Notes under the pieces: model-generated
Database searches by the model: none
What the model saw: the letters and a program-made list of their open reading frames with translations, nothing else
Told to the model about the DNA's origin: nothing
Origin: Candidatus Cloacimonadales bacterium
GTDB taxonomy: Bacteria; Cloacimonadota; Cloacimonadia; G963667145
Direction: 5' to 3'
DNA length: 64,000 nt
NCBI GenBank assembly: GCA_965228195.1
Contig: OZ245797.1
Location: 158,718-222,717 of the forward strand
In this document: one piece after another, positions 1,235 through 63,628 of the stretch
Position numbering within the stretch: position 1 is the first letter of the stretch
Layout: every line of letters starts with the position of its first letter
Translations under genes and position numbers: made by a program

Positions 1235-1291
1235 GCGGTTAAAAAATCGACTACTTACTTTTAGTCAATAGTTTTTGCGGGGGGATTAGCT

Positions 1292-1818: not shown

Positions 1819-1822
1819 ATTC

Positions 1823-16938: not shown

Positions 16939-16988
16939 CTGACCACATAAATACGGCTAATCATTTGAGACTTCATTTATGTGGTCAG
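16939..16988. repeat. hairpin H3 (type A)
   Basis: 'ctgaccacataaat' / 'atttatgtggtcag'; loop 'acggctaatcatttgagacttc'. Followed by a duplicated 'gtcag' and then module S. Confidence 0.85.
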
Positions 16989-17532
16989 GTCAGATTTGGG
17001 GTGGCACTCTCCGCTTCATCGGGGTCACCTGTTTTCACTTGCTCGGTCGAGCAGAGACACTTAGCACTCTCTTCAAGTGTTGAAAACGCAAAGACCAAAG
17101 TGATTAGCCTAATCAGGAACAAATCTCGGAGATGCTCCCCGCCACGGTAATCTTAAGACATCTCACGACCTGTCTCTAGCGAGTTGAAGCGGAGTGCGTT
17201 TTCTTTTCTCTCCCCTCTCTTTTCGTTGAGCGTTCAACGAAAAGAGAGGGACTCACCGTAGGTGAACCAAAGGCTTTGTCGCTTCCGCTCCAAAGCAATT
17301 GATGAGTTACAAAGGATAATTGTTAATTAAAAATAAAAGTGAAAAAATCTACTCCACCAGATGGACAGGGTGGAAACACTTTACCCCTATTCCCTCATTC
17401 CTAGCGAAAGCAGGAATCCATCAGTAAAACGATGCTCTGAAAAGTGCGGGGCGAGGAAGAAAAAAACACCATCACTTAGTGGGGAAAGGATGGGGTGTAA
17501 TTTTTCATTTTTCATTCTCAATTTTTAATTTT

Positions 17533-17582
17533 ATGACCACTAAAATGAAGCTATAAATTTGAGACTATATTTTAGTGGTCAG
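17533..17582. repeat. hairpin H4 (type B)
   Basis: 'atgaccactaaaat' / 'attttagtggtca(g)'; loop 'gaagctataaatttgagactat'. Followed by 'atttggggtgg' (the start of S). Confidence 0.85.
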
Positions 17583-17658
17583 ATTTGGGGTGGATTTTTT
17601 CATTCTTCTTTTTTATTCTTTCATTTGCGTGAGCTACTGCTCACGCAACTATCAACTA

Positions 17659-38559: not shown

Positions 38560-39300
38560 AACGCTTAAAACAAGCCAAATTTTACCCTCGCTTATGTCAA
38601 GAAAAAATAGTTTGTGTCTGCTTTCTCCTGCGGAGGGCTCTGACCTGACCACATAAATACGGCTAATCATTTGAGACTTCATTTATGTGGTCAGGTCATA
38701 ATTAAGAGTTAAAAATTAAAAATGAAAAATTCCACCGCAACCCCGCACTTTTTTTTGCATCGTGCTACTTATGGATTCCTGCTTCCGCTAGGAATGAGGG
38801 AATAGGGGTAAAGCGTTTCCGCCCTGTCCATCTGGTGGAGTAGATTTTTCACTTTTATTTTTAATTAACAATTATCCAATGTAACTTATCAATTGCTTTG
38901 GAGCGGAAGCGACAAAGCTTGCGGAGGGCTTACTCTTGTCGCTTTAGCTAGTGGTTCACCTTGCGGTGAGCTACTCTTTCTTGCAGGGCAAGTAAACACC
39001 CATTCCCTTCCTTATTTTGCTAAGTAAATTATTATTGCTTTCTCCTGCGGAGGGCTTACTCTTTTCGGATTGCCGAAAAGAGTAACAGAAAAGACAACTC
39101 CGCTTCAGAGCGCCAGCGACGGGGCGTGTCACCAGCAAAGTAAAAAAGTGTGGTCGTTCCCGCTTATTACCCGTAGTCTTGTTATTTTCTAAACTTAACC
39201 TTTGCACCTCTATTTAGAAAGTGATTTTTGTCGCTGGCTTATCAATGCAAGGAAAATAAGAAAACCCCGTTAAGCGGAGGTTTCCCCGCCTTTAAGTCAT
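38560..39300. repeat. repeat block R4: H7 - inverted P - linker - Q, adjacent to tRNA-Met
   Basis: 38745-38930 is the reverse complement of 17270-17450 (P plus linker). 39040-39250 matches Q at 16120-16330. Detached hairpin H8 lies 340 bp further on at 39649. Confidence 0.85.
38641..38698. repeat. hairpin H7 (type A, extended 18-bp stem with duplicated 'tgacc')
   Basis: 'tgacctgaccacataaat' / 'atttatgtggtcaggtca'; loop identical to H3. Confidence 0.85.
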
Positions 39301-39648
39301 CGCTAGCTTTTGTGGTTGGCATATATTCAAGGCTCAGCACCAAATAAATACTCTAATCAAAAAGCGTCCAATTTCTTACACTGACTGAGCTTACGATAAT
39401 TGCGTAGTGCTATATCACCGATAAAAAAGAATGATAGTGATTCATAGCACAAGCAATATTAGCGTGCGAGGCGAAGTTTAGAAATTTAGCTTTTTGATTA
39501 TGTATTTTGTTTTTACCTTTTGTTTTACTTTTAGCTTTGGACACCCAAAGGGAAAAGTAAATAACTAGTCACCTATTAGGCGAAAGAATCCACTCTGACC
39601 AGTTAGGCGGGGTGGATTTTTTCATTTTTCATCTTTAATTATTATTTT

Positions 39649-39698
39649 CTGACCACATAAGTGCGGCTAAAGATTTTAGACTTAATTTATGTGGTCAG
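39649..39698. repeat. hairpin H8 (type A variant, 12-bp stem), solitary, just downstream of cysK
   Basis: 'ctgaccacataa' / 'ttatgtggtcag'; loop 'gtgcggctaaagattttagacttaat'. Preceded by the AT-rich 'ttttcatttttcat' box. Confidence 0.8.
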
Positions 39699-39705
39699 AA
39701 ATCCC

Positions 39706-50273: not shown

Positions 50274-50359
50274 TGGTGCGAGAGGGGGGACTTGAACCCC
50301 CAAGAGCAGAGCTCGCTGGATTCTAAGTCCAGTGCGTTTACCAATTTCACCACTCTCGC
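50274..50359 (-). tRNA. tRNA-Leu (anticodon TAG)
   Basis: The reverse complement 'gcgagagtggtgaaattggtaaacgcactggaCTTAGAAtccag...' has a long variable arm (class II), T-arm 'ggggttcaagtcccc' and encoded CCA. Confidence 0.85.
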
Positions 50360-50439
50360 TTTTGGAAAAAGCAGTAGCCTCTTTGCAAAAAGAAAAAACC
50401 ACCACTGCGCCCACAATTTAAAAACTGCCTTGGCTGTCA

Positions 50440-51195
50440 AGGCAAAAAAGACAAGATTTCCTGCCCCAAAGGGCTGGAAATCTCTCCGCTTTCAGCGGGG
50501 AATGTTTTTTTCGCCTAGCGGCGAAGAGTTTTTTACTTTTCCCTTTGGGTTCTTGGCTTTCAGCCAAAATGTCACCTTTCTTTTTTTTTGAAAAAAAATA
50601 AATGTGACCGAAAGAAAAAATCAAATCAAAAGACAAAATCCTAACTTGCAAAACTCCTTCGTTGTGGCTGTAGTGTATCGTTTAGATTCTTTCTTAGATA
50701 TACTAAAGTAAGAGAAATAAACTCCTCACACATCCACAACTTCAGTCGTTTAAACAAGTTCACGGATTTAGCCTTGATTGATTACTAGCCCTTCCCGCCT
50801 AGCTGGGTAGGATAGGTGCTTGCTTATTTGCTTAGAGTGTGGGAACAACCTCCGCTTAAAGGGGTCTTCTTATTTTAGTTACATTGATAAGCCAGCGACA
50901 AAAATCGCTTTCTCAGTAAAGATGCAAAACCAGAAGCAGAAAATGACAAGACTACGGGTAATAAACGGGAACAACCACACTTTTTTACTCTGCTGGTGAC
51001 ACGCCCCGTCGCTGGCGCTCTGAAGCGGAGTTGTCTTTTCTGTTACTCTTTTTGGCAATCCGAAAAGAGTAAGCCCTCCGCAGGAGAAAGCAAATATTAC
51101 TGCTTTAATGAGACTAAGACGATGGTGTCTCCGACACCTTATCTTTCTCCCCTAATTCCTAGCGGAAGCAGGAATCCATCAGTAGGACGATGCTG
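50440..51195. repeat. repeat block R5, including direct repeat DR1 (50571-51195), left boundary of the defense island, adjacent to tRNA-Leu
   Basis: 50571-51195 and 61604-62226 differ at about 17 positions over ~625 bp by eye. The block contains Q (reverse orientation) and P, and begins with hairpin-like 'gtcaccttt...aaatgtgac'. Confidence 0.9.
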
Positions 51196-51391
51196 AAAAA
51201 AACCAAACAAAGCAAACAGCTACAAAAAAAAATCTTTCGCTGTTTTTCAGCTTGCGGGTAACGGTTTGAATATGTGGAATACAGGATTTCAAAGCACTTC
51301 ACTATCAAACCGTTGAGAAGTTGAAGCGGGCTATAACCGTTGAATTCACTACTATTTCGCCTATTTTGTATATAAAATGTTGTAACATTTT

Positions 51392-52936
51392 TTATTCTTC
51401 ATCCTTTTTAAAGACTGCCAAATGTTCTAATAATTCTATGTTTCTTTTCGGTTTCTTTATAGTCTCAAATAATTTAATCCCTGTTGGTATCGGTTTAAAG
51501 AATTCAGCCCGATTATCTTTTAAACTTTTAATCAACTTGCTCCTAACTTTTGATGGAAAGCTAACTTTAAATAAGTCCAAAGACTTTACAAAGTACACCA
51601 ACCAAATAATATCATATTGATTGTCCTCTGGATTTTTCAACTTGTCATTTAAAAGATTTTCAATCACTGAACTAATTGTTGAAATCGTCCTGACCTTTTT
51701 CCTATTGTTCAATATTATTTGCTCTATTATTCCTAATATTTGAGGAAATGATTTATTTCTTCTTTCCTTAAGCATAAGCAATAAGCTTATTGTTTTCAAT
51801 AAATCTTTTTCCTTAAAGTCAAATTTAAGGTCAAAATCCTTGGTGTAAAGTTCACTTAAAAACCTATCAACAACACCAGTACCTTCGTATTTTTGGTCTA
51901 CCTTTAGAGTTCCTCTTATTGAACTTTCAAATCTTTTATAACTTACCTTTCTCTTATACCTTAATGAATATTGTTGGTAATCAGCCGTCCATTCCCTAAA
52001 TAATCCTTCTGGCAATTCATCAATTTTCGATTTACCTTCATTTAGCGTCAGGTTGTATAAAGCTAACTGTTTCTGCAATACCTTAATTATTTGATTAGCT
52101 TCTTCTTTTGTCTGACACAAAAAACGATAATCGTCTTTAAATCTTACTCCTAAAAAATCAATCCCTTGAGTATCGATTATTTTAGAGCACTCAGTATCCA
52201 AAGCAACAAGAATTAACTCAGAAATTAAGTCTGAAAGAGCTGGCCCAATAGCGATTCCGTTTGTACACCCATCATTAGAATATTGGAATAGTTTATCCAG
52301 AACTAATCCGACAAAATTATTAAAATCACTCCGATTACCCTTTTTTCTTATCTTCTCCTTAGTGTGAATTGCCCAAGCAATACTATGTGTATAGATTGAA
52401 GAATAGAAATTTTTAATATCTGTTTTAAGTATGTATTTATAGTTATAAGCTTCTGCTACTAAATCATTTTCTGCCATTTCAAGAAACTCATAAATCATTC
52501 TACCAGCTCTCAAATTTCCAAGAAGTCCTTCACTTTTATTTGAAACGGGTATTGGAAAACTATAAGAGTAGATTTTATTCTGTCGCCTAAACAATGATTT
52601 CTGAATTAATTCCCAATCATTTATCAAGTACCATACAATGTCGTGATATATTTTAGGAGCAATAATTCCAAATGTTCTATCAGTCAGTTGTGTTTTTGGA
52701 AATGAAACATTTAATAATTCGGATTTTTCAGGCTCAAATTTAGGCTGGCTACCTGAATTATCTATTTCAAAATATGGATTTGTCAATAGGTCAAATTTAC
52801 CAACTTCAAAACACGGAGGCATAACATATTGCTCAGGAAAATAACCTTCTTCCAATAACCATTTTGCAACAATGTCTTTTGGTACTTTTTTTAGAAGTTT
52901 TTTAGTTTCAATGCTATGTTTTCTTGGTAATGTCAT
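51392..52936 (-). CDS. stand-alone reverse transcriptase of the UG/Abi (defense-associated, DRT/Abi-P2-like) type, 514 aa
   Basis: RT motif 1 'FPIPVSNKSEGLLGNLRAGR', motif 2 'DIKNFYSSIYTHSI', motif B-like 'NGIAIGPALSDLISELIL', motif C 'FLGVRFKDDYRF' (catalytic DD), then a ~170-aa helical C-terminal domain. No maturase or endonuclease domain; A+T-rich codon usage. Confidence 0.8.
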   Translation of the reverse strand: MTLPRKHSIETKKLLKKVPKDIVAKWLLEEGYFPEQYVMPPCFEVGKFDLLTNPYFEIDNSGSQPKFEPEKSELLNVSFPKTQLTDRTFGIIAPKIYHDIVWYLINDWELIQKSLFRRQNKIYSYSFPIPVSNKSEGLLGNLRAGRMIYEFLEMAENDLVAEAYNYKYILKTDIKNFYSSIYTHSIAWAIHTKEKIRKKGNRSDFNNFVGLVLDKLFQYSNDGCTNGIAIGPALSDLISELILVALDTECSKIIDTQGIDFLGVRFKDDYRFLCQTKEEANQIIKVLQKQLALYNLTLNEGKSKIDELPEGLFREWTADYQQYSLRYKRKVSYKRFESSIRGTLKVDQKYEGTGVVDRFLSELYTKDFDLKFDFKEKDLLKTISLLLMLKERRNKSFPQILGIIEQIILNNRKKVRTISTISSVIENLLNDKLKNPEDNQYDIIWLVYFVKSLDLFKVSFPSKVRSKLIKSLKDNRAEFFKPIPTGIKLFETIKKPKRNIELLEHLAVFKKDEE

Positions 52937-53084
52937 TCTCTGTCTTTAAATAACTGGCAACCACTCGCTACCATCATTTTACATATCATCCTTATTTGAC
53001 TTGCTATCTACATAGTTTATATTTTTTCCCATAACTCTTACTCACTCCTACTTGTCGAAAAAATAAGCCCAAACTTCTTTGTCA

Positions 53085-53500
53085 ACCAAAATAGTCAAGG
53101 CTTTGTCGCTTCCAGCGGTGAATGTTTTTTTCTCCTGCGGAGGGCTTACTCTTTTCGGATTGCCGAAAAGAGTAACAGAAAAGACAACTCCGCTTCAAAG
53201 CGCCAGCGACGGGGCGTGTCACCAGCAGAGTAAAAAAGTGTGGTTGTTCCCGCTTATTACCCATAGTCTTATTATTTTCTGTATCTGGCTTTGCATCTCT
53301 ACTTAGAAAGTGATTTTTGTCACTGGCTTATCAATGCAGAGAAAATAAGAAGATCCCGTTAAGCGGAGATTGTCCCCACACTCTAAGCAAATAAGCAAGC
53401 ACCTATCCCGCCCAGATAAGCAGCGCAAGAAGCCCATTTTCCCCTCCCACCCTCATTCCTAGCGGAAGCAGGAATCCATCAGTAGGACGATGCTGAAAAA
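53085..53500. repeat. repeat block R6 inside the island (Q forward ... P forward) between the RT promoter region and the DUF1016 gene
   Basis: 53130-53230 matches Q ('ttctcctgcggagggcttactcttttcggattgccgaaaagagtaacagaaaagacaactccgcttcaaagcgccagcgacggggcgtgtcacc'). 53450-53500 matches P ('cctcattcctagcggaagcaggaatccatcagtaggacgatgctg'). Confidence 0.85.
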
Positions 53501-53602
53501 AACCATTTGACAATCAATGTCTTAACCAAACCCTTTGAAAGATCAATCCAAATTGTTCAAAACAAAAAGCCAATATTTTGAGTTGGTCGAAAGGAGATAG
53601 CT

Positions 53603-54604
53603 GTGAGTAACAAAAAAAATATAGATGATCAACTAATTAGTTCAAATTTTTATTCTGACATAAAAAATATCCTCCAAAATGCTCGCTCTAAAGCCCGCTC
53701 TGCTGTAAATTCGACAATGGTTGAAGCTTATTGGTTTATAGGTAAACGAATAGTAATAGAAGAGCAAAATGGACAAAGCAAAGCAAAATACGGTCTGCAT
53801 TTATTGGAAAATTTATCAACAAAACTAGCCGATGATTTTGGCAGAGGATTTTCTTATGCTAATCTCAGAAATTTCCGTCAGTTTTATCTAACCTATCCAC
53901 AGAAAGAGATTTGCTACACAATGTGTAGCAAATTGACTTGGAGCCACAACAGATTAATAATGCGTGTTGAAGATCCAAAAGCTCGGGATTACTACTTACA
54001 AGAGGCTTCACAAGAAAACTGGAGCGTTCGCCAACTAGAGCGTAATATCAAATCTAACTATTTTGAACGCTTGCTTTCTACGCAAAAAAACGATGCTGTT
54101 TCTAATACTGAGAAAACACTCGACTTTATTAAAGATCCTTATGTTTTAGAGTTTTTGCAACTGCCAGAGAGTAACATAAAAGAATCAGCTTTAGAAGAAG
54201 CTATTGTCAGTGAATTAAAAAGTTTCTTGCTTGAAATGGGAAAGGGATTCTCTTTTGTAGCTAAACAAATGCGTATAAGCACCGAAACTTCTCATTTTTA
54301 TATCGATCTTGTATTTTATAATTATTTGCTAAAATGCTTTGTGATTATAGATCTTAAAACAGGCAAACTCACCCACCAAGACATTGGGCAAATGGATATG
54401 TATGTGCGTATGTTTGACGATTTAAAACGCAATAAAGACGATAATCCTACCATCGGAATTATCTTATGTGATAGCAAAGATAAAACCGTCGTGAAATATT
54501 CTGTGTTAAAAGAGAACGAACAACTTTTTGCTTCAAAATATCAGAAAGTGCTACCAACCGAAGAAGAGCTAATTGCTGAAATTGCAAGAGAAAAACGCAG
54601 ATAG
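53603..54604 (+). CDS. DUF1016/YhcG-like protein with C-terminal PD-(D/E)xK nuclease fold
   Basis: 333-aa ORF. 'FYIDLVFYNYLLKCFVIIDLKTGK' gives the D...(D/E)xK nuclease core seen in YhcG-family proteins; A+T-rich; between the RT and the hsd operon. Confidence 0.75.
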   Translation: MSNKKNIDDQLISSNFYSDIKNILQNARSKARSAVNSTMVEAYWFIGKRIVIEEQNGQSKAKYGLHLLENLSTKLADDFGRGFSYANLRNFRQFYLTYPQKEICYTMCSKLTWSHNRLIMRVEDPKARDYYLQEASQENWSVRQLERNIKSNYFERLLSTQKNDAVSNTEKTLDFIKDPYVLEFLQLPESNIKESALEEAIVSELKSFLLEMGKGFSFVAKQMRISTETSHFYIDLVFYNYLLKCFVIIDLKTGKLTHQDIGQMDMYVRMFDDLKRNKDDNPTIGIILCDSKDKTVVKYSVLKENEQLFASKYQKVLPTEEELIAEIAREKRR

Positions 54605-54715
54605 TAGTGTTTTTTTTCCACCAAGCACATAAATTTGCTCCTAAGAGATATTAAAATTTATTCTATTCAAATTATTTATAAAATTGTAAACAATTTGTGT
54701 GCTGGTAAGAGTCTT

Positions 54716-57700
54716 CTATAATCTGATTTGATTACCAGTTTGACTCTGAATCAATGTTTCAAAAATAAACTCTTTATATCTTCTTTGAAAATCTTTGTCG
54801 TTGTTAAACTTTTTGAACACTTCAGTTTGACTAAACAAATATTGTTGCACCACTTCCTCAAGTTTTTTATCTGCACTAATTTTTGCGTTTTGGCGATCTG
54901 AGTATTTTATCGTATTCATTATTTCTTTATTAGCTTTCATTTCTGCAGGTAATTGCTCTATTAATATTTTTCTTACTTTGTCTTTATCAGACCACTCAAT
55001 ATCACCAAATCGCTGATTAAATACACTTAAAATATTTTCCAGTGTATCTAACTCTGGTTCTTGTTGTCCACCTCTTACATCAACAGGAATTCCACAAATT
55101 TCGCCTGGCTTCTCAACTAATGCAATATCTTTGGTTGTCTCTTTTGAGGGACGATAACTGTCCATATCAATACTTTCCAAAATTCCTTCCGTAAAATCAT
55201 CAGTCTGATCTATATATAACTTAGTAACAAGGTATTTAAGAAACCAGAAAAGCTTTTCCCAAGTTTGATTGTTAAAATCTAGTATTTTAGTAAGATAGCT
55301 GTAAACTCTCAAAAATGATTTTGCTTTTGCCTTGAAATCTATTTGTTGATCTTTGCTAATATCATTTTTAAATATTTTAACAGACCTATCTATTATAGGG
55401 TCAAGTTTTGCACGCTCTTCACCTTCAATATATTTTTTGAAAAAGTCATCAATTTGGTAATCAGAATAAACCTCGAAAGCTTCCATAGAGTCTACTAAAT
55501 CGTTCAGTTTATTTGGATTAGTTTCTTCACTTAATATGGTTGCCGTGTAATAAGGGTCAAAAGCCAACTTAATTTCTTCTGCTTCGTTGAAAAAGTCTAA
55601 GACAAAGGTATCTTTTTTATGTGGTTTTTTAGCACGGTTTAATCGTGAAAGTGTTTGAACGGCTTGAACTCCTGCCAACTTTTTATCTACATACATAGTG
55701 TGCAATAATGGCTCATCAAAACCTGTCTGGTATTTTTCGGCAACTATCAAAAAGCGATATTCCATTTTTTTAAAATTCTTGGGAATATCTGTTTTAAATG
55801 TTTTGAAGTTATTCATGCCAACCTCATTATATTCAACACCCTTGTATAGTTTTGTTCCAGAGAAAGCAACAATAGCTTTGTAGGGCGATTTTATTTCTTT
55901 CAAATAAGTGTCGAAAGCTTGCTTATACTTAATTGCTAATTCAATACTTTTGGTAACAACCATCGCTTTTGCTTTTCCACTTATTAGTTGACGAACATCA
56001 CGATGAAAATGGTCAATCATTATTTTAGACTTTTCGGCAATGGCAAATTCATTACCCTCTACATAAGCTCGAAGTTTTTTCTGTGCCTGTTTGGTGTCAA
56101 ATTCAGGATTATCTTCAACCGCTTTAATTAGCTTATAAAAAGAGTTGTAAGTTGTGTAATTTTTCAATACATCCAGAATAAACCCTTCCTCAATTGCCTG
56201 TTTCATGCTGTAGACATGGAAAGCATAAAATCTATGTTTTATCTCCCCATTTTCATCGGTGTAAGTTTCTTCCGATTTTACACCAAAAGTTTCCAGTGTT
56301 TTATTTTTTGGCGTAGCCGTAAAGGCAAAGTAAGAGCCGTTTTTGATCATTTTACGACTTTCAATCAGGTCGTTTATTTTATCCTCCAAGGTTTTCTCTT
56401 CCTTTTCTTCTTCGCCATGTTTATCTGCTAAAACAGCATTCATTTTCGAAGAAGTCTGTCCACTTTGTCCACTGTGTGCTTCATCAATGATAATTCCGAA
56501 TTGCATAGCTGGCATATCTGCCATTTCATCTAATAAAAACGGGAAAGTCTGAACGGTGCAAACAATTACTTTTTTACGGTTGGCGAGTGCTTCTTTTAGC
56601 TGACTTGTTTTACTTCCACCAACACTGGTAATGTGCTCAACAATGCCACGTTTTGGCGAGAACTGTTTAATATCTTCGCTTAGCTGTTTATCAAGCACAA
56701 TACGGTCTGTAATTACGATAACCGAATCAAATAAATGCGTTTCTCCTGAAGTGTCAAACAAACCATGCAGTTGATGAGCCAACCAAGCTATCGATTTTGA
56801 TTTGCCCGAACCTGCCGAATGTTGAATCAAGTATTTATTGCCAACACCATTACTTTTTGCATCTGCTAAAATTTGCCTGACTGCGGTAAGCTGATGATAA
56901 CGAGGAAAAATCATCATGCGTTTTACTCTTTTAGTTTCCTCGTCGGTTTCTTCAACAACCTGTGCAAATTTGTCGATAATGTTGGCAAGCGACTGTTTGG
57001 TTAAAACCTCTTCCCAAAAGTAATGTGTTTTTAGTCCCGTTGGGTTTACTGGATTTCCAGCCCCAAAATTGCCTGTTGCTCTACCTTCGTTTAAGCCTTT
57101 GTTAAAAGGCAAAAAGAAAGTTTTTTTATGATTCAAATGCGAGCTCATAAAGATCAATTCTGTATCGACTGCAAAATGAACCATGCAACGAGCAAAAGAA
57201 AATATCTTTTCTTTTGGGTCTCGGTCGTTTTGGTATTGGCGAATGCCGTTGTGAACGGTTTGTCCGCTTAACGGATTTTTAAGCTCACATGTAATAATTG
57301 GCAAGCCGTTTAAAAAGATAGTCAAATCTAAGCGGTTGGCATTGTCAGAACTATAAACTAACTCCTGAGTCACTGAAAAAATATTGGCGTTGAATTTATC
57401 AAGGTCTTTGGTATTGTAGCTTGAAGCAGGTTGACGGAAAAACAAATTCACGGTTTTATCGAAGTGCTTTATACCTTTTCGTAACACTTCAATTACGCCT
57501 AGTTTCCTGAGTTTTTCATCCAAACGCACCAAAAAAGAACGCTCGCCCTTGCGCTTAATCATTTGGTAAGTCTCAGGCTGGGTCTTTTTGATAAACCCCC
57601 ACAATTGTTTTGGGTTTATGCAAAACTCTTTGTCGAAATCTTTAGAAACAGTCTCGCAAAACTTGTTTTGCTCCACAAGTTGTTTCACAATGTATTTCTG

Positions 57701-57736
57701 AAACCCCTTTTCTGATGTATCTGTAAATGTCCTCAT
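54716..57736 (-). CDS. hsdR: Type I restriction enzyme R subunit HsdR
   Basis: 1006-aa ORF. N-terminal nuclease domain, SF2 helicase motifs 'QHSAGSGKSKSIAW' (Walker A) and 'IIIDEAHSGQ' (DEAH), and a C-terminal helical domain. Last gene of the operon. Confidence 0.9.
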   Translation of the reverse strand: MRTFTDTSEKGFQKYIVKQLVEQNKFCETVSKDFDKEFCINPKQLWGFIKKTQPETYQMIKRKGERSFLVRLDEKLRKLGVIEVLRKGIKHFDKTVNLFFRQPASSYNTKDLDKFNANIFSVTQELVYSSDNANRLDLTIFLNGLPIITCELKNPLSGQTVHNGIRQYQNDRDPKEKIFSFARCMVHFAVDTELIFMSSHLNHKKTFFLPFNKGLNEGRATGNFGAGNPVNPTGLKTHYFWEEVLTKQSLANIIDKFAQVVEETDEETKRVKRMMIFPRYHQLTAVRQILADAKSNGVGNKYLIQHSAGSGKSKSIAWLAHQLHGLFDTSGETHLFDSVIVITDRIVLDKQLSEDIKQFSPKRGIVEHITSVGGSKTSQLKEALANRKKVIVCTVQTFPFLLDEMADMPAMQFGIIIDEAHSGQSGQTSSKMNAVLADKHGEEEKEEKTLEDKINDLIESRKMIKNGSYFAFTATPKNKTLETFGVKSEETYTDENGEIKHRFYAFHVYSMKQAIEEGFILDVLKNYTTYNSFYKLIKAVEDNPEFDTKQAQKKLRAYVEGNEFAIAEKSKIMIDHFHRDVRQLISGKAKAMVVTKSIELAIKYKQAFDTYLKEIKSPYKAIVAFSGTKLYKGVEYNEVGMNNFKTFKTDIPKNFKKMEYRFLIVAEKYQTGFDEPLLHTMYVDKKLAGVQAVQTLSRLNRAKKPHKKDTFVLDFFNEAEEIKLAFDPYYTATILSEETNPNKLNDLVDSMEAFEVYSDYQIDDFFKKYIEGEERAKLDPIIDRSVKIFKNDISKDQQIDFKAKAKSFLRVYSYLTKILDFNNQTWEKLFWFLKYLVTKLYIDQTDDFTEGILESIDMDSYRPSKETTKDIALVEKPGEICGIPVDVRGGQQEPELDTLENILSVFNQRFGDIEWSDKDKVRKILIEQLPAEMKANKEIMNTIKYSDRQNAKISADKKLEEVVQQYLFSQTEVFKKFNNDKDFQRRYKEFIFETLIQSQTGNQIRL

Positions 57737-57739
57737 AAA

Positions 57740-59128
57740 CTATTCCTTTATTTTTGAACGATATTGGTTTTCTTTTTCGGCGACCATTCCCAAATCAATA
57801 TCTTGACCCAAATTTGAGTTTGCATCATCAGGCACTTTTAACTGCCCTGTTACTATTTGGGTGATTAAACTTTCTTGGTACTCTTTGGCTTTAGCGATTT
57901 CTGTTTGGGCTTTTGTAACAGCTATTTCATACGGAGATAGTTCGCTCTCAATCTTTCGAACAATATTAATTTGTTCCTCTTTAGGAGGTAGTGGAATAAA
58001 CATTTTACTAAAATCTCCCTTGCCAATATTTGGTTGACCTGTCTCTCTTTGACCAAATATAATTTGGTCAAAAATAACAGACGAAGATAATAGCCAAAAA
58101 AGATAGTCTTTATTTAGTTTTTTATTAGAAGGGAAAAAGTTGCCTACACGATAGTTTTGTAATAAAACTTCGTTAATACCCTTTGCACATATAATCTTAC
58201 CAATTGTACCACCTGTCAATGCCATTAAAATATCACCTTCGTTTATGATATCTTCTCTAAATTCAACCTTCCTTTTAGAATCAACAAAAGAGCAATTTGA
58301 TAAATCTAAACTTCCTTCATAGGTTAGTTGGGTGATTTTAACAATTTTAATTCCAATATTCTTAAAGTCATAATCTCTAAATTGGTGACCATGCCTTAAA
58401 TAAATATAATGGTTAAATTTCACAACTTCCCAATGTTCAGGTATATCACCAATCCATTCGTTGTTAGAACTAATAAGTTTTCCTGAACCCTCACCATTGG
58501 TTATAAGTTTATATATGATTGATTTCTTTTCTTCCTCCAACAGCTCAATCAATCGTTCTTTTTTAGCAACAAAATCTTGTATTTGCTTTGTTTTGCGGTC
58601 GAGGTAGGCAACTATGGCATTTTGGGTTTCAAGCGGTGGCACAATACTGTACATACGTTTGAAATCCACGTAACGTAATGGTATTTGTCCATCTGCAATT
58701 CCATAAGCAAAACGTTCCACATAGTTTTTATAAAAACCAGTACGAAACATGTAATAGAAGAAACGAGGATTTAACTCAACTCCTTTCTTTGGTTTCAAAA
58801 CTGTACAAGCTGGACTTACAATTCCTTTGTAAACGCTGTAACCCGATGCACCTTGGCGAAAACGCATGCTGTAAACCAAATCGCCAGGATAAACCAATAA
58901 GTACTTACTTTTATCTAAAGTGGATGAATCCCTTTTCTCCAATTCAGATTGTTTAATTACTCCACGCCCAATGGTTACTGAAAGTAGTTCTTTATCTTCG
59001 TGTCCACGTTCAATCCGTTCCTGAAAAATTGCAATATTTGGTAACAGTTTCCAGCCTTCGGGTAATTGCGAAATGTAATCGTATTCAACAGGCTGATAGT
59101 TTGTGTATGCTTGTAATTTACCCATCAC
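57740..59128 (-). CDS. hsdS: Type I restriction-modification specificity subunit HsdS
   Basis: 462-aa ORF with two target-recognition domains separated by conserved coiled-coil spacers ('LIELLEEEKKSIIYKLITNG', '...LITQIVTGQLKV'). It overlaps hsdM by 4 nt. Confidence 0.85.
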   Translation of the reverse strand: MMGKLQAYTNYQPVEYDYISQLPEGWKLLPNIAIFQERIERGHEDKELLSVTIGRGVIKQSELEKRDSSTLDKSKYLLVYPGDLVYSMRFRQGASGYSVYKGIVSPACTVLKPKKGVELNPRFFYYMFRTGFYKNYVERFAYGIADGQIPLRYVDFKRMYSIVPPLETQNAIVAYLDRKTKQIQDFVAKKERLIELLEEEKKSIIYKLITNGEGSGKLISSNNEWIGDIPEHWEVVKFNHYIYLRHGHQFRDYDFKNIGIKIVKITQLTYEGSLDLSNCSFVDSKRKVEFREDIINEGDILMALTGGTIGKIICAKGINEVLLQNYRVGNFFPSNKKLNKDYLFWLLSSSVIFDQIIFGQRETGQPNIGKGDFSKMFIPLPPKEEQINIVRKIESELSPYEIAVTKAQTEIAKAKEYQESLITQIVTGQLKVPDDANSNLGQDIDLGMVAEKENQYRSKIKE

Positions 59129-61314
59129 TCTTTCACTATTTGGTTTAAAATACCGTCGGTTTCTTGCTCTAGTTGCAAAATTTCTGCGCTAATCTCTTCA
59201 ATGCTGCGTGGCGGAACATAGTTGTAGAAATAACGGGTAAAAGATATCTGGTAACCTTTTACGGTTTTCTTGTGGTCAATCCAAGCGTCATTTACATGAG
59301 CCAAAACCTCACGCTCAAAATAGGTTTGAATATCTTCGTCTAAAGGCACATTTTCGGTGTCGCGCAAATCGCCATCGGCTTCGTAAATTATAGTGCCGTC
59401 TTTTTCTGTTTTCTTGATTACAGGCTCGGCATCTTCGTTTTTCCAAGTAATGGCGTTTATAATTGCTTTTTGTGCCTTATTGTCGAGTTTCAGCTTTTCA
59501 CTCTTTATGGTTTCGGTAAATAGTTTAGAAAACTTGTTAAAATCGTTATGCTGTTCGGTTCCAATGCTGCTCATTAGTTTTGTCGCATTTTTAAGCAGTT
59601 CTTTTTGTGCTTTCCAAAAATCCTCACTAAACAAATTTTTCTTTTGTGCCGCTTTTAGTTTTATCTCGTGTCGGGCAAGATGGTTTTCAATCTCAGGTTT
59701 TAAATCTTTCAGTTTGGTATAAACATCATCGCCAAACTTCTGGTAAACCCAAACCATTTCAGCGGCAATACTTTTTTCAAAACGCAAACCCTTAAGGGCT
59801 TCCTGGGTAAATTGTGCCGATAAACGCAAAGGGCGTTCAACCGTAATTTTATTGTAGCCAAAATAGTCGTTCGGGAATATTTTGGAAATGTCCGATTCTT
59901 CAAAGTCCATATAAAGCTTTGTAATTTGGTCGATGTGTTTGGCTGTCATCTCACAGTTCTTATCTCCCAAGTTTTTGCGAAGCTTTACATACAATTCAAG
60001 TGCGTTAATCAATTGCACCTTCCCTTTTCGTTTGTCTGGTTTTCGGTTGTTCACAATCCAAACATAGGTTGGTATTCCTGTATTATAAAAGATATTTTTA
60101 GGTAAAGCAATGATGCAGTCTAACCAATCGTTTTCGATAATATATTTGCGGATTTCGCTTTCTCCGCCACCAGCGTCGCCTGTAAACAAAGCCGAACCAT
60201 TATGAACAGTTGCAATTCGGCTTCCCAGTTCGGTATTGTGTTTCATTTTGCTGAGCATATTCATCAGGAACAATAATTGCCCGTCAGAAATAGTTGGCAA
60301 ACCAACTTGAAAACGAGGATCTTTAATATTCTGGGCATTTTCGCCCGAACCTTTTTTGCCTCGGTTGGCAACAATGGCGTTTTCATCAAGCTTCCAAGTT
60401 TTGCCATAAGGTGGATTTGAGAGCATAAAATCAAAATTAAGGCTTGGAAAACCATCTTTTGAAAGGGTAGAGCCAAAAGCGATATTTTCAGGTTTATCGC
60501 CTTTTATCAGCATATCAGAGGTGCAAATTGCAAAAGTTTCAGGATTTACCTCTTGTCCATACAACAAAAATGATGCTTCGTTTTCTGTAAGTTCCAAAGC
60601 AAACTGTTCTGCCTCGGTTAACATTCCGCCACTACCACAGGCTGGATCATAGATTAAATAACTTCCTTTTTTGATTTTATTTTTAACAGGCAAGAACAAA
60701 ATGTGAGTCATCAGTTTAATGATTTCTCGTGGCGTAAAGTGTTCTCCAGCTTCCTCGTTATTTTCTTCGTTAAACTTTCTGATTAGTTCCTCGAAAACAT
60801 AACCCATTCCTAAATTGGTCAACGGTGGCATTTTATCACCTTTTCCATTTACCGCTTCATTAGGACTCAAGTTAATCTCTCTGGAGGCAAACTTTTCAAT
60901 TAGCAAATAGGTGATCTCGTTTTCTTTCATAGTCTCAAGCTGGTTTCGCAGTTTGAATTTGCTAATTATTTCTTGCACATTGGGGCTGTAACCATCCAAA
61001 TAAACCTCAAGGTTGCTGTCTATATTATCAGAATCGTTTAACAGGCTCTCAAAAGTAAACTTGGAAGTGTTCCAAAATGGATAACCAGTTTGTGATTTTA
61101 AAGCAGACAAATCGTCTATTTGATTTTGCTTCATAAACTCTACTGCTTCAAGCACCTTTGCCTTTGTCGGAACAAGAAGAGCGTCTAACCGTCTCAAAAC
61201 AGTAAAAGGCAAAGTTATATCTCGATATTTGCCTCTAACAAAAACATCTCTGAGCACATCGTCGGCAATACTCCAGATGAAACTTACTATTTGATTGTGA
61301 ACTTTATTGTTCAT
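59125..61314 (-). CDS. hsdM: Type I restriction-modification N6-adenine DNA methyltransferase HsdM (long form, 729 aa)
   Basis: HsdM N-terminal domain, SAM-binding 'DPACGSGGML', catalytic 'LSNPPYG', and a ~250-aa helical C-terminal extension. Confidence 0.9.
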   Translation of the reverse strand: MNNKVHNQIVSFIWSIADDVLRDVFVRGKYRDITLPFTVLRRLDALLVPTKAKVLEAVEFMKQNQIDDLSALKSQTGYPFWNTSKFTFESLLNDSDNIDSNLEVYLDGYSPNVQEIISKFKLRNQLETMKENEITYLLIEKFASREINLSPNEAVNGKGDKMPPLTNLGMGYVFEELIRKFNEENNEEAGEHFTPREIIKLMTHILFLPVKNKIKKGSYLIYDPACGSGGMLTEAEQFALELTENEASFLLYGQEVNPETFAICTSDMLIKGDKPENIAFGSTLSKDGFPSLNFDFMLSNPPYGKTWKLDENAIVANRGKKGSGENAQNIKDPRFQVGLPTISDGQLLFLMNMLSKMKHNTELGSRIATVHNGSALFTGDAGGGESEIRKYIIENDWLDCIIALPKNIFYNTGIPTYVWIVNNRKPDKRKGKVQLINALELYVKLRKNLGDKNCEMTAKHIDQITKLYMDFEESDISKIFPNDYFGYNKITVERPLRLSAQFTQEALKGLRFEKSIAAEMVWVYQKFGDDVYTKLKDLKPEIENHLARHEIKLKAAQKKNLFSEDFWKAQKELLKNATKLMSSIGTEQHNDFNKFSKLFTETIKSEKLKLDNKAQKAIINAITWKNEDAEPVIKKTEKDGTIIYEADGDLRDTENVPLDEDIQTYFEREVLAHVNDAWIDHKKTVKGYQISFTRYFYNYVPPRSIEEISAEILQLEQETDGILNQIVKE

Positions 61315-62285
61315 TTATTTACCTCGTCAATTTAAAAAAGTCATAACAATAAACAAATTACAGCTTTGCAAAAAAAAATCTTGCTGCAAATTTGAGTTTT
61401 AGCAAAAATGTGACTTTTTGGCAAGCTAAAAACATCAACTTGTGTGTCGGAGCTTGCAAATTTGCTGTTTGTGTGGAGTGCAATCACAACTATTTACTAA
61501 CATCATTGTCTATAATTTTCATTATAGTATCCAAGAAAACTTATCCAAATTTTCCCGTCAACCAAAATAGTCAAGGCTTTGTCGCTTCCGGCGGGTTACT
61601 TATGTCACCTTTCTTTTTTTTTGAAAAAAATAAATGTGACCGAAAGAAAAAATCAAATCAAAAGACAAAATCCTAACTTGCAAAACTCGTTCGTTGTGGC
61701 TGTAGTGCATCATTTAGATTCTTTCGGAGCATAGCTAAAGACAGAGAAATAAACTCCTCACACATCCACAACTTCAGTCGTTTAAGCAAGTTCGACGGAT
61801 TTAGTCTTGATTGATTACTAGCCCGTCCCGCCTAGCTGGGTAGGATAGGTGCTTGCTTATTTGCTTAGAGTGTGGGAACAACCTCCGCTTAAAGGGGTCT
61901 TCTTATTTTAGTTACATTGATAAGCCAGCGACAAAAATCGCTTTCTCAGTAAAGATGCAAAACCAAAAGCAGAAAATGACAAGACTACGGGTAATAAACG
62001 GGAACAACCACACTTTTTTACTCTGCTGGTGACACGCCCCGTCGCTGGCGCTCTGAAGCGGAGTTGTCTTTTCTGTTACTCTTTTTGGCAATCCGAAAAG
62101 AGTAAGCCCTCCGCAGGAGAAAGCAAATATTACTGCTTTAATGAGACTAAGACGATGGTGTCTCCGACACCTTATCTTTCTCCCCTAATTCCTAGCGAAA
62201 GCAGGAATCCATCAGTAAGACGATGCCCAAAAAAGTGCGGGGTTGCGGTGGATTTTTTCATTTTTCACTCTTAATTTTTTCTTTT

Positions 62286-62335
62286 ATGACCACTAAAATG
62301 AAGTTATAAATTTGAGGCTATATTTTAGTGGTCAT
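62286..62335. repeat. hairpin H9 (type B)
   Basis: 'atgaccactaaaat' / 'attttagtggtcat'; loop 'gaagttataaatttgaggctat'. Followed by module S. Confidence 0.85.
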
Positions 62336-62990
62336 ATTTGGGGTGGCACTCTCCGCTTCATCGGGGTCACTTTTTTTCCTATCTTAGTAGAGCAGAGACA
62401 CTTGGCACTCTCTTAAGGTGTTGAAAACGAAAGACCAAAGTGATTAGCCAGTCAGGAACAAATCTCGGAGATGCTCCCCGCCACGGTAATCTTTAAGACA
62501 TCTCACGCCCTGTCTCTAGCGAATTGAAGCGAAAGCGACAAAGCTGTGGGGACAATCTCCGCTTAAAGGGAAATTAGCCCCTTTTCGTTACTTTGTTAAG
62601 CCAGTGACAAAAACCACTTTCTAAGTAGAAGTGTAAAAGTTACGTTTAGAGAATGACAAGTCTACGGATAATAAGCGGGAACAACCACACTTTTTTACTC
62701 TGCTGGTGACACGCCCCGTCTCTAGCGAATTGAAGCGGAGCGCGTTTTCTTTTCTCTCCCCTCTCTTTTCGTTGAGCGATCAAAGAAAAGAGAGGGTCTT
62801 GCTGAAAGCAATAAGAGTAAGCCCTCCGCAGGAGAAAGCAATAATAATTTACTTAGCAAAATAAGGAAAGGAGCGGGTGCTTACCTGCCTGCAGAAAAAA
62901 ATGCAAGGTTAGAAAGAGAAAAACATAATCACTCAGTGGGAAAAAAATTGAATGAAATTTTTTCATTTTTCATTCCCAATCTTTTATTTT

Positions 62991-63040
62991 ATTACCACTA
63001 AAATGAAGCTATAAATTCGAGACTATATTTTAGTGGTCAT
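62991..63040. repeat. hairpin H10 (type B, one stem mismatch)
   Basis: 'attaccactaaaat' / 'attttagtggtcat'; loop 'gaagctataaattcgagactat'. Confidence 0.8.
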
Positions 63041-63150
63041 ACCTGCCCTCCGCGAGGAGAAAAAGACATCCCACCCCCTTGCAAGCAGAAAACAAAAAAA
63101 AAGATTGACTCAAAATCTATCTTCCAGAGTTTACTCCTAAATTAAGATGT

Positions 63151-63227
63151 GCGCCCGTGGCTCAATTGGATAGAGCACCTGACTACGGATCAGGAGGTTT
63201 GGGGTTCGAATCCCTACGGGCGTGCCA
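63151..63227 (+). tRNA. tRNA-Arg (anticodon ACG)
   Basis: 'gcgcccgtggctcaattggatagagcacctgaCTACGGAtcagg...ggttcgaatccc...cgggcgtgcca': a cloverleaf with anticodon ACG, encoded CCA and a G1:U72 wobble. Confidence 0.85.
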
Positions 63228-63247
63228 TTTTTTTTGTTTGGGAGTAA

Positions 63248-63628
63248 TTGATGATTTTTGGTGTTGGAGTTGATATTCTCAAGGTGGCTCGCCTAGAAGA
63301 GTCGATCAACAAACTGGGCGAAAAGTTTTTAGAAAAAATCTTCACTCCTGCGGAAATCTGTTATTGCCAAAGCAAGTCCTGCCCTGCTATCCATTTCGCC
63401 GCTCGCTTCGCTGCCAAAGAGGCTTTGAGCAAAGCTATCAAAACTGGTTTTGCCCAAGGCGTTTGTCCACAACAGATAGAGGTTACCAAAAACGATCTCG
63501 GATCTGTTTGCTTGCAGTTGCACGGCCAAACGAAAGAGGTTTGTGAGCGCCTGCAGATCAAGCGTCTACACCTGAGCCTCTCACACGAAAAAGATTTTGC
63601 TATTGCCCAGGTGACTGCCGAAATTTGA
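63248..63628 (+). CDS. acpS: holo-[acyl-carrier-protein] synthase
   Basis: 'IFGVGVDILKVARL' (Mg-binding Asp), 'FAAKEALSKA', 'LSLSHEKDFAIAQV'; 126 aa. Confidence 0.85.
   Translation: MMIFGVGVDILKVARLEESINKLGEKFLEKIFTPAEICYCQSKSCPAIHFAARFAAKEALSKAIKTGFAQGVCPQQIEVTKNDLGSVCLQLHGQTKEVCERLQIKRLHLSLSHEKDFAIAQVTAEI

What the first reader, a model, noticed from the sequence alone, without database searches (positions are those of the whole stretch)
50440..62230. Defense island (RT + DUF1016 nuclease + Type I RM) bracketed by two ~625-bp near-identical direct repeats
What the sequence shows:
- 50571-51195 and 61604-62226 are direct copies of the same repeat module, differing at about 17 positions by eye. 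The last ~330 bp are almost identical.
- The ~10.4 kb between them is visibly more A+T-rich than the flanking core (tig-clpPX, acpS). It holds a UG/Abi-type reverse transcriptase, a YhcG-like PD-(D/E)xK nuclease, and an hsdM-hsdS-hsdR operon.
- The island sits between two tRNAs (Leu-TAG and Arg-ACG), both transcribed away from it. It is not joined to a tRNA 3' end, and no integrase is present.

Inference: the arrangement looks like a composite, transposon-like or recombination-delivered cassette. Its boundaries are members of the genome's own multi-copy repeat family rather than an att site.
Basis: partly seen in the sequence, partly recalled or inferred. Interest (0 to 1): 0.8.

Follow-up and report, generated by a model that had tools for sequence, protein, structure and literature searches.

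The report
Repeat-bracketed foreign defence island, no integrase
A 10.4-kb block of imported anti-phage genes sits in a repeat-filled gap of a small uncultured bacterial genome, flanked by a duplicated piece of the host's own hairpin repeats; it is a real but fairly ordinary integrase-less defence island, most likely moved by homologous recombination.

Summary
Windows 50569-51201 and 61602-62234 are direct copies (635-nt alignment, 96.9% identity). They bracket 10.4 kb of low-GC DNA (GC3 0.25-0.38 against 0.48-0.63 in core genes). That DNA encodes a UG14 reverse transcriptase, a YhcG/DUF1016 nuclease and an intact hsdM-S-R operon. There is no integrase or transposase.

New findings:
- The island has two parts. 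A third, inverted repeat block (53081-53505) separates the RT from the rest, and both parts share identical junction sequences.
- The bracket is a mosaic of three modules: a 220-nt hairpin module, a 310-nt core and a 56-nt hairpin module. The flanking cores are 99.4% identical; other core copies are 77-90% identical.
- The right copy is the resident one. An island-free relative has the same module upstream of tRNA-Arg-acpS.
- The closest relative carries a different type I restriction gene at that spot, so the site is a hotspot.
- The position between two tRNAs results from a large inversion.
- The RT is 74-86% identical to Bacteroidota RTs, whereas host Tig is at most 31% identical, so the RT was acquired horizontally.

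Delivery and reshuffling by homologous recombination through native repeats is plausible but not proven. A composite transposon is not supported, because there are no terminal inverted repeats, no target duplication and no transposase.

The parts
50274..50359 (-). tRNA-Leu(TAG). Its 5' end faces the island. In three relatives its neighbour on this side is EF-G, not an island.
   Evidence: ARAGORN; Rfam; relatives
50360..50568 (.). Left outer flank: short terminator-like hairpin modules of the native repeat family. It is not part of the duplication.
50569..51201 (+). Left copy of the 635-bp direct repeat, a three-part mosaic. 50569-50792 is the 220-nt long-hairpin module (92.7% to the right copy). 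50793-51164 is the core plus spacer (1 difference in 372 nt). 51150-51205 is the 56-nt hairpin module in a deletion variant shared with the internal copy.
51206..53080 (-). Cassette 1 (GC about 0.31). It holds the UG14 reverse transcriptase gene 51392-52936(-), 514 aa, with the FKDD catalytic motif at residue 266.
53081..53505 (.). Internal host-type repeat block (GC 0.42-0.51) that splits the island. It consists of the 38-nt junction module 53081-53118, an inverted core 53129-53421 (87% to the flanks) and the 56-nt module 53450-53505 (98% to 51150-51205).
   Evidence: (I1, I2)
53506..61556 (.). Cassette 2. It holds the YhcG/DUF1016 PD-(D/E)xK nuclease 53603-54604(+), hsdR 54716-57736(-), hsdS 57740-59128(-) and hsdM 59125-61314(-).
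61557..61594 (+). Second copy of the 38-nt junction module (37/38 identical to 53081-53118). Together with 61595-61601 it precedes the right repeat copy, which starts at 61602.
61602..62234 (+). Right copy of the 635-bp direct repeat. This is the resident copy: its 3' end runs on into the standard family sequence, and a homologous 220-nt module sits upstream of tRNA-Arg in an island-free relative (L165:9569-9788).
62235..63064 (.). Further native mosaic repeat array between the right copy and tRNA-Arg. It includes a diverged core copy at 62545-62755.
63151..63628 (+). tRNA-Arg(ACG) 63151-63227 and acpS 63251-63628. This is the conserved anchor of the hotspot.

Best explanation
**What it is.** This is a 10.4-kb, two-cassette, horizontally acquired anti-phage island. 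Cassette 1 is a stand-alone UG14 reverse transcriptase. Cassette 2 is a YhcG-like PD-(D/E)xK nuclease plus a complete type I restriction-modification operon. The island lies in the repeat-filled intergenic region upstream of tRNA-Arg(ACG)-acpS. In related genomes that site is empty or carries different restriction cargo.

**The bracket.** The island encodes no mobility function. It is flanked by a 635-bp direct duplication made from the host's own mosaic hairpin repeats. The right copy is resident. The left copy is a truncated, patchwork duplicate.

**Most likely mechanism (inferred).** The cassettes were installed by RecA-type homologous recombination between copies of these repeats, and they are now reshuffled and can be deleted the same way. 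Entry could have been a Campbell-type single crossover of a circular intermediate carrying one repeat block, or a double crossover with DNA from a sibling lineage. Transposition and site-specific integration are less likely.

**Side effect.** The adjacency to tRNA-Leu comes from a separate, replichore-symmetric inversion.

**Shown.** The repeats, their mosaic structure, the foreign origin of the island, the gene content, the hotspot variability and the synteny break.

**Inferred.** The recombination mechanism, the direction of the duplication and the inversion as a single event.
For: **Foreign origin.**
- Island gene GC3 is 0.25-0.38, against 0.48-0.63 in core genes.
- The RT is 74-86% identical to RTs of Flavobacterium, Fluviicola, Mucilaginibacter and Salegentibacter. 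Host Tig is at most 31% identical to anything outside its clade's near relatives, where the next hit is 45%.

**Two independent cassettes.**
- Of 72 metagenomic RT loci, none carries a close YhcG or hsdRSM homologue. Only six carry a distant one, at 26-33% identity and E as low as 5e-46.
- DNA homology with those loci stops at the RT ORF.
- A host-type repeat block at 53081-53505 separates the two cassettes.

**No mobility genes or transposon ends.**

**The bracket is a true block duplication.**
- The flanking cores are 99.4% identical, against 77-90% for all other pairs.
- The 220-nt module, and about 40 nt of spacer, occur only in these two copies within the window.

**The right copy is resident.** In L165 (the same 1.57-Mb circular genome as L084) the order is infC | 220-nt module 9569-9788 | tRNA-Arg | acpS, with no island.

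**The left copy is truncated at the foreign DNA.** It shares a deletion-variant 56-nt module with the internal copy, which points to patchwork recombination.

**Hotspot.** The closest relative, L167, has a low-GC EcoEI-type hsdR directly upstream of tRNA-Arg-acpS. That gene is unrelated to the window's hsdR.

**Inversion.**
- rpoD-EF-G-tRNA-Leu-tig is conserved in L084, L087 and L088. Neither rpoD nor EF-G is in the window.
- The tig and acpS loci lie on opposite replichores in the relative (GC skew +0.21 and -0.18) but are co-polar in the window.
Against: - No genome of the same species was available. Neither an empty site with a single repeat copy nor a circular junction has been seen.
- All four contigs that carry this exact acpS also carry hsdM next to it.
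- The 5' 220-nt part of the bracket is only 92.7% identical between the two copies. Copies of that module at three unlinked loci of a relative are 96.7-98.3% identical. Family-wide concerted evolution or gene conversion could therefore produce near-identity without a recent integration event.
- A Bacteroidota-like donor would not carry the host's repeats. The first entry of the genes into this lineage needs another route.
- Both cassettes share junction sequences found nowhere else in the window. That is also what a site-specific process would leave.
- The closest relative's occupied site shows none of these repeat modules.
Confidence: 0.55

Rival explanations
1. The repeats came second. The foreign DNA entered the tRNA-Arg hotspot by some unrelated route, such as illegitimate or homology-facilitated recombination, or an element that has since decayed. 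MITE/REPIN-like modules then colonised the new intergenic DNA. The near-identity of the two flanking blocks would reflect later gene conversion between neighbouring direct copies.
For: - The repeats fill every long intergenic region, including those next to native genes.
- The module order [56-nt module] gene(-) [TGTCAA...GCTTTGTCGCTTCC module] also surrounds native minus-strand genes (D6/D15, 71).
- Module copies are homogenised within a genome, at 96.7-98.3% across unlinked loci.
- The left copy is a three-part patchwork.
- The internal block is collinear with a native composite at 16106-16485.
Against: - The two flanks share the same order of three modules, plus spacer sequence that is unique in the window. 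This is more easily explained by duplication of one block than by independent colonisation.
- No target-site duplications surround the internal block or the flanks.
- The left copy ends abruptly inside the family unit, exactly where the foreign DNA starts.
Confidence: 0.25
2. A MITE-bounded composite transposon. Two non-autonomous elements in the same orientation would be mobilised together with the cargo by a transposase encoded elsewhere, as with the 439-bp MITEs that flank class 1 integrons in Acinetobacter.
For: - Two same-direction, ORF-less repeats flank the cargo.
- The 220-nt module is a long imperfect hairpin with arms of about 35 nt, which is MITE-like.
- An rve-type transposase exists in a relative's genome at L087:1-642.
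- A precedent is described in PMC3934969.
Against: - The 635-bp unit has no terminal inverted repeats.
- There is no direct target repeat outside the pair: GCCAAA on the left against GTGCGG on the right.
- The copies are 97% identical, not 100%, and are mosaic.
- The right copy continues seamlessly into the standard family sequence and sits at an ancestral position.
- No transposase is present in the 64-kb window.
Confidence: 0.08
3. Site-specific cassette capture. The 56-nt and 38-nt junction modules would be recombination sites. Each cassette would have been inserted by an unidentified recombinase, giving an integron-like array.
For: - Both cassettes have the same left junction (GACGATGCTGAAAAAAACCA) and the same right junction (GTCAACCAAAATAGTCAAGGCTTTGTCGC).
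- Each junction sequence occurs only at these two places in the window.
- All four junctions contain AACCA.
Against: - No recombinase is in the window.
- The junction modules are variants of family modules that also flank native genes in the same order.
- The left-junction variant is explained by a ~22-nt deletion of the standard module, shared through recombination (D6, 41).
- The evidence rests on only two cassettes.
Confidence: 0.07
4. Assembly artefact. The duplication or the joins would have been created by mis-assembly of a repeat-rich long-read metagenome.
For: Three fold-back (palindromic) contigs from the same sample cover this region, which shows that the assembler or library had trouble here.
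Against: - Those contigs reproduce the hsdM - right copy - tRNA-Arg - acpS join at 99.7-100% identity.
- The two copies differ at 22 alignment columns, so they are not one collapsed or duplicated sequence.
- A 635-bp repeat is far shorter than typical HiFi reads (background knowledge).
Confidence: 0.03

Closest known systems
Minimal mobile elements (MMEs) and intergenic mosaic repeat arrays of Neisseria (Saunders & Snyder 2002; Snyder et al. 2007, as cited in PMC3082526)
   Same: - Cassettes without an integrase or transposase, often restriction-modification genes, sit between conserved genes.
- Different genomes carry alternative cassettes at the same site.
- Incorporation is by homologous recombination.
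- The genome is rich in modular intergenic hairpin repeats.
   Different: - Only one flank (tRNA-Arg-acpS) is conserved here, because the other was replaced by an inversion.
- The cargo is bracketed by a 635-bp direct duplication of repeat modules, which is not part of the MME definition.
- The comparison is between species with 65-80% protein identity, not between strains.
- Competence and uptake signals are unknown in this lineage.
MITE-flanked composite transposon-like elements (439-bp MITEs flanking class 1 integrons in Acinetobacter, PMC3934969)
   Same: - Two same-direction, non-coding repeats of a few hundred bp flank cargo that has no transposase.
- The authors also consider homologous recombination as a route.
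   Different: - Those MITEs are 100% identical, have matching terminal sequences and leave a 5-bp direct target repeat.
- Here there are no terminal inverted repeats and no target duplication.
- Identity is 97% with mosaic structure, and one copy is at an ancestral position.
Core defence hotspots without identifiable mobilisation (P. aeruginosa cDHS, PMC10250203; E. coli hotspots, PMC10121019)
   Same: - Variable defence cargo sits at a fixed chromosomal position next to conserved genes or tRNAs.
- Some occupied sites have no detectable mobile element.
   Different: - Those were defined from hundreds to thousands of genomes of one species. Here the evidence is three states in three related species.
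- The flanks here are native mosaic repeats.
REP/BIME/REPIN, BOX and Correia-type intergenic repeat families
   Same: - Short hairpin modules are combined in mosaics and confined to intergenic DNA.
- Stems show compensatory changes.
- Copies are homogenised within a genome and diverged between genomes.
   Different: - The modules here are longer (50-310 nt) and cover about 10% of the sequence of a ~1.56-Mb genome.
- No RAYT or other cognate transposase was seen in the window.
- There are no Rfam matches.
UG/Abi defence reverse transcriptases (Mestre et al. 2022, PMC9226505)
   Same: - Full-length match to the UG14 model.
- The nearest other models are Drt6, Drt4, Abi-P2 and AbiK.
- It is a stand-alone gene in a defence context.
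   Different: UG14 is only predicted to be a defence gene, from its enrichment in defence islands. Activity has not been shown, and this copy is untested.

Membership tests
IS-bounded composite transposon | Insertion sequences encoding a transposase at both ends | tested here: not met
   No ORF of 60 aa or more in either 635-bp copy has any Pfam match. The island's five genes are the RT, YhcG and hsdRSM.
IS-/MITE-bounded composite transposon | Terminal inverted repeats on each bounding element, and a short target-site duplication outside the pair | tested here: not met
   The unit starts with ATGTCACCTTTC and ends with GACGATGC(TG/CC)AAAAAA, which is not inverted symmetry. The outer flanks are GCCAAA and GTGCGG.
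Integrase-mediated genomic island at a tRNA gene | A tyrosine or serine recombinase gene in the island | tested here: not met
   Pfam and PADLOC scans of all island ORFs found none.
Integrase-mediated genomic island at a tRNA gene | Short att direct repeats, one overlapping the tRNA 3' end | tested here: not met
   Both tRNAs face the island with their 5' ends. The direct repeats are 635 bp long and lie 210 nt and 917 nt from the tRNAs.
Minimal mobile element / recombination-exchanged hotspot | Alternative cassettes, or none, at the same site between conserved genes in different genomes | tested here: inconclusive
   The acpS side shows three states: empty (L165), an EcoEI-type hsdR (L167) and this island. 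The other flank is not conserved because of an inversion. No same-species genomes were available.
Minimal mobile element / recombination-exchanged hotspot | Incorporation by homologous recombination in the flanks | not testable with these tools
   This needs sibling genomes or reads. All context look-ups and collection scans were exhausted.
Type I restriction-modification system | Adjacent intact hsdM, hsdS (two target-recognition domains) and hsdR | tested here: met
   - HsdM: N6_Mtase + HsdM_N; MTase_I E = 1e-265, full length.
- HsdS: Methylase_S matched in 2 stretches; Specificity_I matched over residues 5-438.
- HsdR: HSDR_N + ResIII/SWI2_SNF2 + T1R_D3.
UG14 defence-associated reverse transcriptase | Full-length match to the UG14 profile with an RT catalytic motif | tested here: met
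   RT_UG14 E = 8e-214 over residues 2-511; RVT_1 E = 4e-12; FKDD at residue 266.
UG14 defence-associated reverse transcriptase | Demonstrated anti-phage activity | not testable with these tools
   UG14 is only predicted to act in defence, from its enrichment in defence islands (PMC9226505).
PADLOC candidate system PDC-S02 (YhcG/DUF1016 nuclease) | DUF1016_N plus the YhcG_C PD-(D/E)xK domain | tested here: met
   YhcG_C E = 9e-58; DUF1016_N E = 6e-49; PDC-S02 E = 2e-138. This is a candidate system only.
Known RNA family (for the repeat modules) | Match to an Rfam covariance model | tested here: not met
   Only tRNAs reach the gathering threshold. Nothing better than E = 0.29 was found in 50360-51400.

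The most novel reading that the evidence does not exclude
The 56-nt hairpin module (variant ...GACGATGCTGAAAAAAACCA) and the 38-nt module (GTCAACCAAAATAGTCAAGGCTTTGTCGC...) would be the two recombination sites of an undescribed cassette-capture system. That system would stack foreign defence genes between host hairpin repeats, like an integron but with MITE-like boundaries and a recombinase encoded elsewhere in the genome.
Probability: 0.07. Interest if true: 0.8.

Novelty: new member of a known kind. Interest (0 to 1): 0.35.

Why it matters
How defence islands move when they carry no integrase or transposase is an open question for many 'core hotspots'. This locus gives a concrete, sequence-level example in a deep-branching, uncultured lineage with small genomes. 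Foreign defence genes of Bacteroidota type are embedded in, split by and bracketed by the host's own recombining hairpin repeats. The same site is empty or differently loaded in relatives. If homologous recombination through such repeats is the vehicle, a dense intergenic repeat family would act as a general docking and exchange platform for defence genes. That would be a reason for a 1.56-Mb genome to tolerate about 10% repeats. The gene content itself is ordinary.

Tried and rejected
**Empty-site and strain comparison**
- Exact-protein look-ups of Tig found nothing.
- acpS was found only in the same sample, on three fold-back contigs. No strain-level comparison was possible.
- A scan of GTDB representative genomes with Tig found no relative.
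- A ClpX scan gave at most 61% identity to hits spread across phyla, so taxonomy stayed unresolved.

**Wider distribution of the repeat modules**
- Scans of IMG/VR for the 220-nt and 56-nt modules gave 0 hits.
- A JGI metagenome scan for the 220-nt module gave 0 hits.

**The 220-nt module as an ncRNA gene**
- It folds into a long hairpin with compensatory pairs.
- It is multi-copy and homogenised within a relative's genome, it sits at different loci in each genome, and it has no Rfam match.
- I therefore treated it as a MITE/REPIN-like element.

**The junction module as a sigma-70 promoter**
- The module ends in TTGACA/TTGACT on the gene strand, but no consistent -10 element follows. This idea was dropped.

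**Transfer of the island as one block from a donor**
- Rejected. None of the 72 RT loci has a close YhcG or hsdRSM homologue nearby.
- DNA homology is limited to the RT ORF.
- The 98%-identical RT, on a 1.7-kb contig, extends the homology only to 51285-52961.

**Phage or plasmid origin**
- There are no close phage RT relatives.
- Plasmid matches to the restriction-modification region are 66% identity or less and partial.

**Target-site duplications around 220-nt module copies in the relative**
- The boundaries are ragged and mosaic, with no duplication.

Full report
**1. The observation**

A self-comparison of the window finds 50569-51201 and 61602-62234 as direct copies. The alignment is 635 nt at 96.85% identity, with 16 mismatches and 4 gap openings (also families D1, D4, D10). 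A global alignment gives 22 differing columns. Seventeen fall in the first 232 nt and five in the last 401 nt (Fisher p = 1.3e-4).

The 10,400 bp between the copies have GC of 0.32-0.39 in 1-kb windows, against 0.41-0.53 elsewhere. GC3 of the five island genes is 0.25-0.38, against 0.48-0.63 for eleven identified core genes.

Pfam and PADLOC profiles identify the genes:
- RT_UG14 (E = 8e-214, full length) at 51392-52936(-).
- A YhcG_C + DUF1016_N nuclease (PADLOC candidate PDC-S02) at 53603-54604(+).
- hsdR 54716-57736(-), hsdS 57740-59128(-) and hsdM 59125-61314(-), all full length.

tRNA-Leu(TAG) 50274-50359(-) and tRNA-Arg(ACG) 63151-63227(+) both turn their 5' ends to the island. No ORF in the island or the repeats has an integrase or transposase domain.

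**2. What the bracketing repeats are**

The window holds a mosaic family of hairpin-rich modules. They are confined to seven long intergenic regions and total 6.3 kb, or 9.9% of the window. They are enriched in terminator-like hairpins, with 13 found against 2.5 expected in 50.2-53.7 kb.

The 635-bp unit has three parts.

(a) A ~220-nt module (50569-50792). It occurs only in the two flanks within the window. It folds as a long imperfect hairpin, with compensatory changes across species.

(b) A ~310-nt core. Seven copies lie in the window. The two flanking cores are 99.4% identical, while every other pair is 77-90% identical.

(c) A spacer and a 56-nt hairpin module.

That criterion is not met.

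The 220-nt module is not a single-copy gene. In a related 1.57-Mb circular genome it occurs at three unlinked places: L084:13468-13694, L165:9569-9788 and L165:17100-17321. Those copies are 96.7-98.3% identical to each other but only 65-69% identical to the window's copies. Another relative has it between rpoD and EF-G. This pattern of concerted evolution within a genome is that of MITE/REPIN-like elements. By this standard, the 92.3% identity of the window's two copies over the aligned module (92.7% counted over the first 232 nt) is not exceptional. No Rfam family matches.

**3. The island has two parts and regular junctions**

A third repeat block of host-like GC (0.42-0.51) lies inside the island at 53081-53505, between the RT and YhcG. 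Its core is inverted and 87% identical to the flanks (I1/I2, 40, 42, 61). It is collinear with a native composite at 16106-16485.

Each foreign segment begins after the same variant of the 56-nt module, GACGATGCTGAAAAAAACCA, at 51186-51205 and 53486-53505. Each ends at the same 38-nt module, GTCAACCAAAATAGTCAAGGCTTTGTCGC..., at 53081 and 61557. Neither variant occurs elsewhere in the window.

The left bracket copy is therefore a three-way patchwork:
- 50569-50792 is 92.7% identical to the right copy.
- 50793-51164 has 1 difference in 372 nt from the right copy.
- Its 56-nt module matches the internal copy, including a shared ~22-nt deletion, and not the right copy.

The right copy runs on into the standard family continuation (...AAAAGTGCGGGG...). 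The left copy stops where the foreign DNA begins.

The same module order (56-nt module, minus-strand gene, TGTCAA...GCTTTGTCGCTTCC module) also surrounds native genes (D6/D15, 71). This tempers any site-specific reading.

**4. Foreign origin and independence of the cassettes**

The RT's nearest homologues, at 74-86% identity, are in Bacteroidota (Flavobacterium, Fluviicola, Mucilaginibacter, Salegentibacter) and unnamed metagenome contigs. One short contig carries a 98% copy.

The host's Tig is 66-80% identical within a small clade of 1.54-1.59-Mb genomes. It is 45% identical to the next hit and at most 31% to anything else. ClpX is at most 61% identical to any GTDB representative sampled.

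In 72 metagenomic RT loci with up to 10 kb of flank, none has a close YhcG or hsdRSM homologue. Six have one at 26-33% identity. DNA similarity is confined to the RT ORF. The RT and the YhcG-R-M block are therefore separate acquisitions. No phage or plasmid source was found.

**5. Comparison with relatives**

Three relatives (L084, L087, L088) share the order rpoD - EF-G - tRNA-Leu - tig - clpP - clpX - pst. They have no island beside tRNA-Leu. rpoD and EF-G are absent from the window.

In the L084 genome, tRNA-Arg-acpS lies 386 kb away, as infC | 220-nt module | tRNA-Arg | acpS | tRNA-Ser. There is no island. The module upstream of tRNA-Arg matches the position and orientation of the window's right copy, so that copy is resident.

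One inversion between the two intergenic regions converts the relatives' order into the window's. The two loci have opposite GC skew in the relative (+0.21 and -0.18). They are co-polar in the window, as expected for an inversion across ori or ter. That this was a single inversion is an inference.

The closest relative (acpS 77% and Tig 80% identical) carries a different gene directly upstream of tRNA-Arg-acpS. It is a low-GC (0.35-0.39) type I R gene with ResIII, SWI2_SNF2 and EcoEI_R_C domains, split into 654 + 149 aa. It has no BLASTP similarity to the window's HsdR. The site upstream of tRNA-Arg-acpS is thus empty, loaded with one R-M system, or loaded with this island in three related genomes. 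It behaves as a defence hotspot.

**6. Mechanism**

A composite transposon is not supported. There is no transposase, no terminal inverted repeats and no target duplication. The copies are unequal and mosaic, and one of them is ancestral. An integrase-type island is also excluded.

The best-supported account is recombination among the native repeat blocks. A single crossover between the resident block and a block on a circular intermediate would give exactly this picture:
- A left hybrid copy abutting the cargo.
- A right hybrid copy preceded by cargo-side sequence and followed by native sequence.

The patchwork of the three island-associated blocks shows that exchange between them has occurred. 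The same direct repeats allow loss of the island by recombination.

I put this explanation at 0.55. The main rival, at 0.25, is that the repeats colonised the island after it arrived and were then homogenised by gene conversion. MITE-mediated transposition (0.08), a site-specific cassette-capture system (0.07) and assembly error (0.03) are less likely.

The functional roles rest on family membership and are untested here:
- Type I restriction-modification.
- A candidate PD-(D/E)xK nuclease system.
- A UG14 RT, which is only predicted to defend (PMC9226505).

**7. Comparison with known systems and novelty**

The arrangement works like two known kinds of system. One is the Neisseria minimal mobile elements embedded in mosaic intergenic repeats (definition in PMC3082526). 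The other is the 'core defence hotspots', some of which have no identifiable mobilisation (PMC10121019; PMC10250203). It resembles MITE-flanked integrons (PMC3934969) in layout but fails their defining features.

It is a new member of a known kind. The lineage, and the density and modularity of its repeat family, are the unusual aspects. The shared junction sequences remain unexplained. Interest 0.35.

Noticed in passing
window 16939-16988 and 38645-38694; L084:13230-13279: A 50-nt perfect-stem hairpin (CTGACCACATAAAT...ATTTATGTGGTCAG) is 100% identical between this genome and a relative whose genes are only 74-79% identical at the DNA level. Other window copies (1297, 15926, 17532, 39648, 62285, 62990) carry compensatory stem changes. 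This suggests strong constraint or recent exchange of the element between species.
   Followed up: partly
window 1289-1820, 15809-17593, 19969-20966, 38637-39699, 50487-51205, 53081-53505, 61557-63064: Mosaic hairpin repeats occupy 9.9% of the window and fill every long intergenic region. That is a heavy load for a genome of about 1.56 Mb. No transposase or RAYT is in the window.
   Followed up: partly
L001, L002, L003 (same sample; they cover window 59.4-64.0 kb): Three palindromic fold-back contigs (50x, 86x and 7x coverage) join inverted copies of the hsdM-repeat-tRNA-Arg-acpS region. The junctions are at window 59894/61170, 62214/59425 and 63266/61129. They are probably long-read or assembly artefacts, but all lie in this hairpin-rich region.
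   Followed up: partly
window 17659-19905 (-): A 748-aa ORF has no Pfam or PADLOC match and a lower GC3 (0.45) than core genes. Repeat blocks flank it on both sides, in the same module order as the island cassettes. It is not homologous to the 753-aa PDDEXK_1 gene at a comparable place in L165. It may be another acquired gene.
   Followed up: partly
window 50274-50359 / 63151-63227 compared with L084 (~319 kb) and L165 (~705 kb): The window's tRNA-Leu | tRNA-Arg adjacency is explained by one ~386-kb inversion relative to three related genomes. GC-skew polarity is consistent with an inversion across ori or ter. The partner junction (EF-G next to infC) could not be checked.
   Followed up: partly
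L167:1-2579: The closest relative's hsdR at the hotspot is split into 654-aa and 149-aa ORFs, the latter carrying EcoEI_R_C. It is possibly a frameshifted pseudogene. No hsdM or hsdS is visible before the contig ends.
   Followed up: no
L087:5573-7668 and L087:1-642: A relative has a 2.1-kb repeat-filled gap between rpoD and EF-G that contains the 220-nt module. It also has an rve/HTH_28-type transposase gene about 5 kb away. This is the only transposase seen in any of the clade's loci.
   Followed up: no
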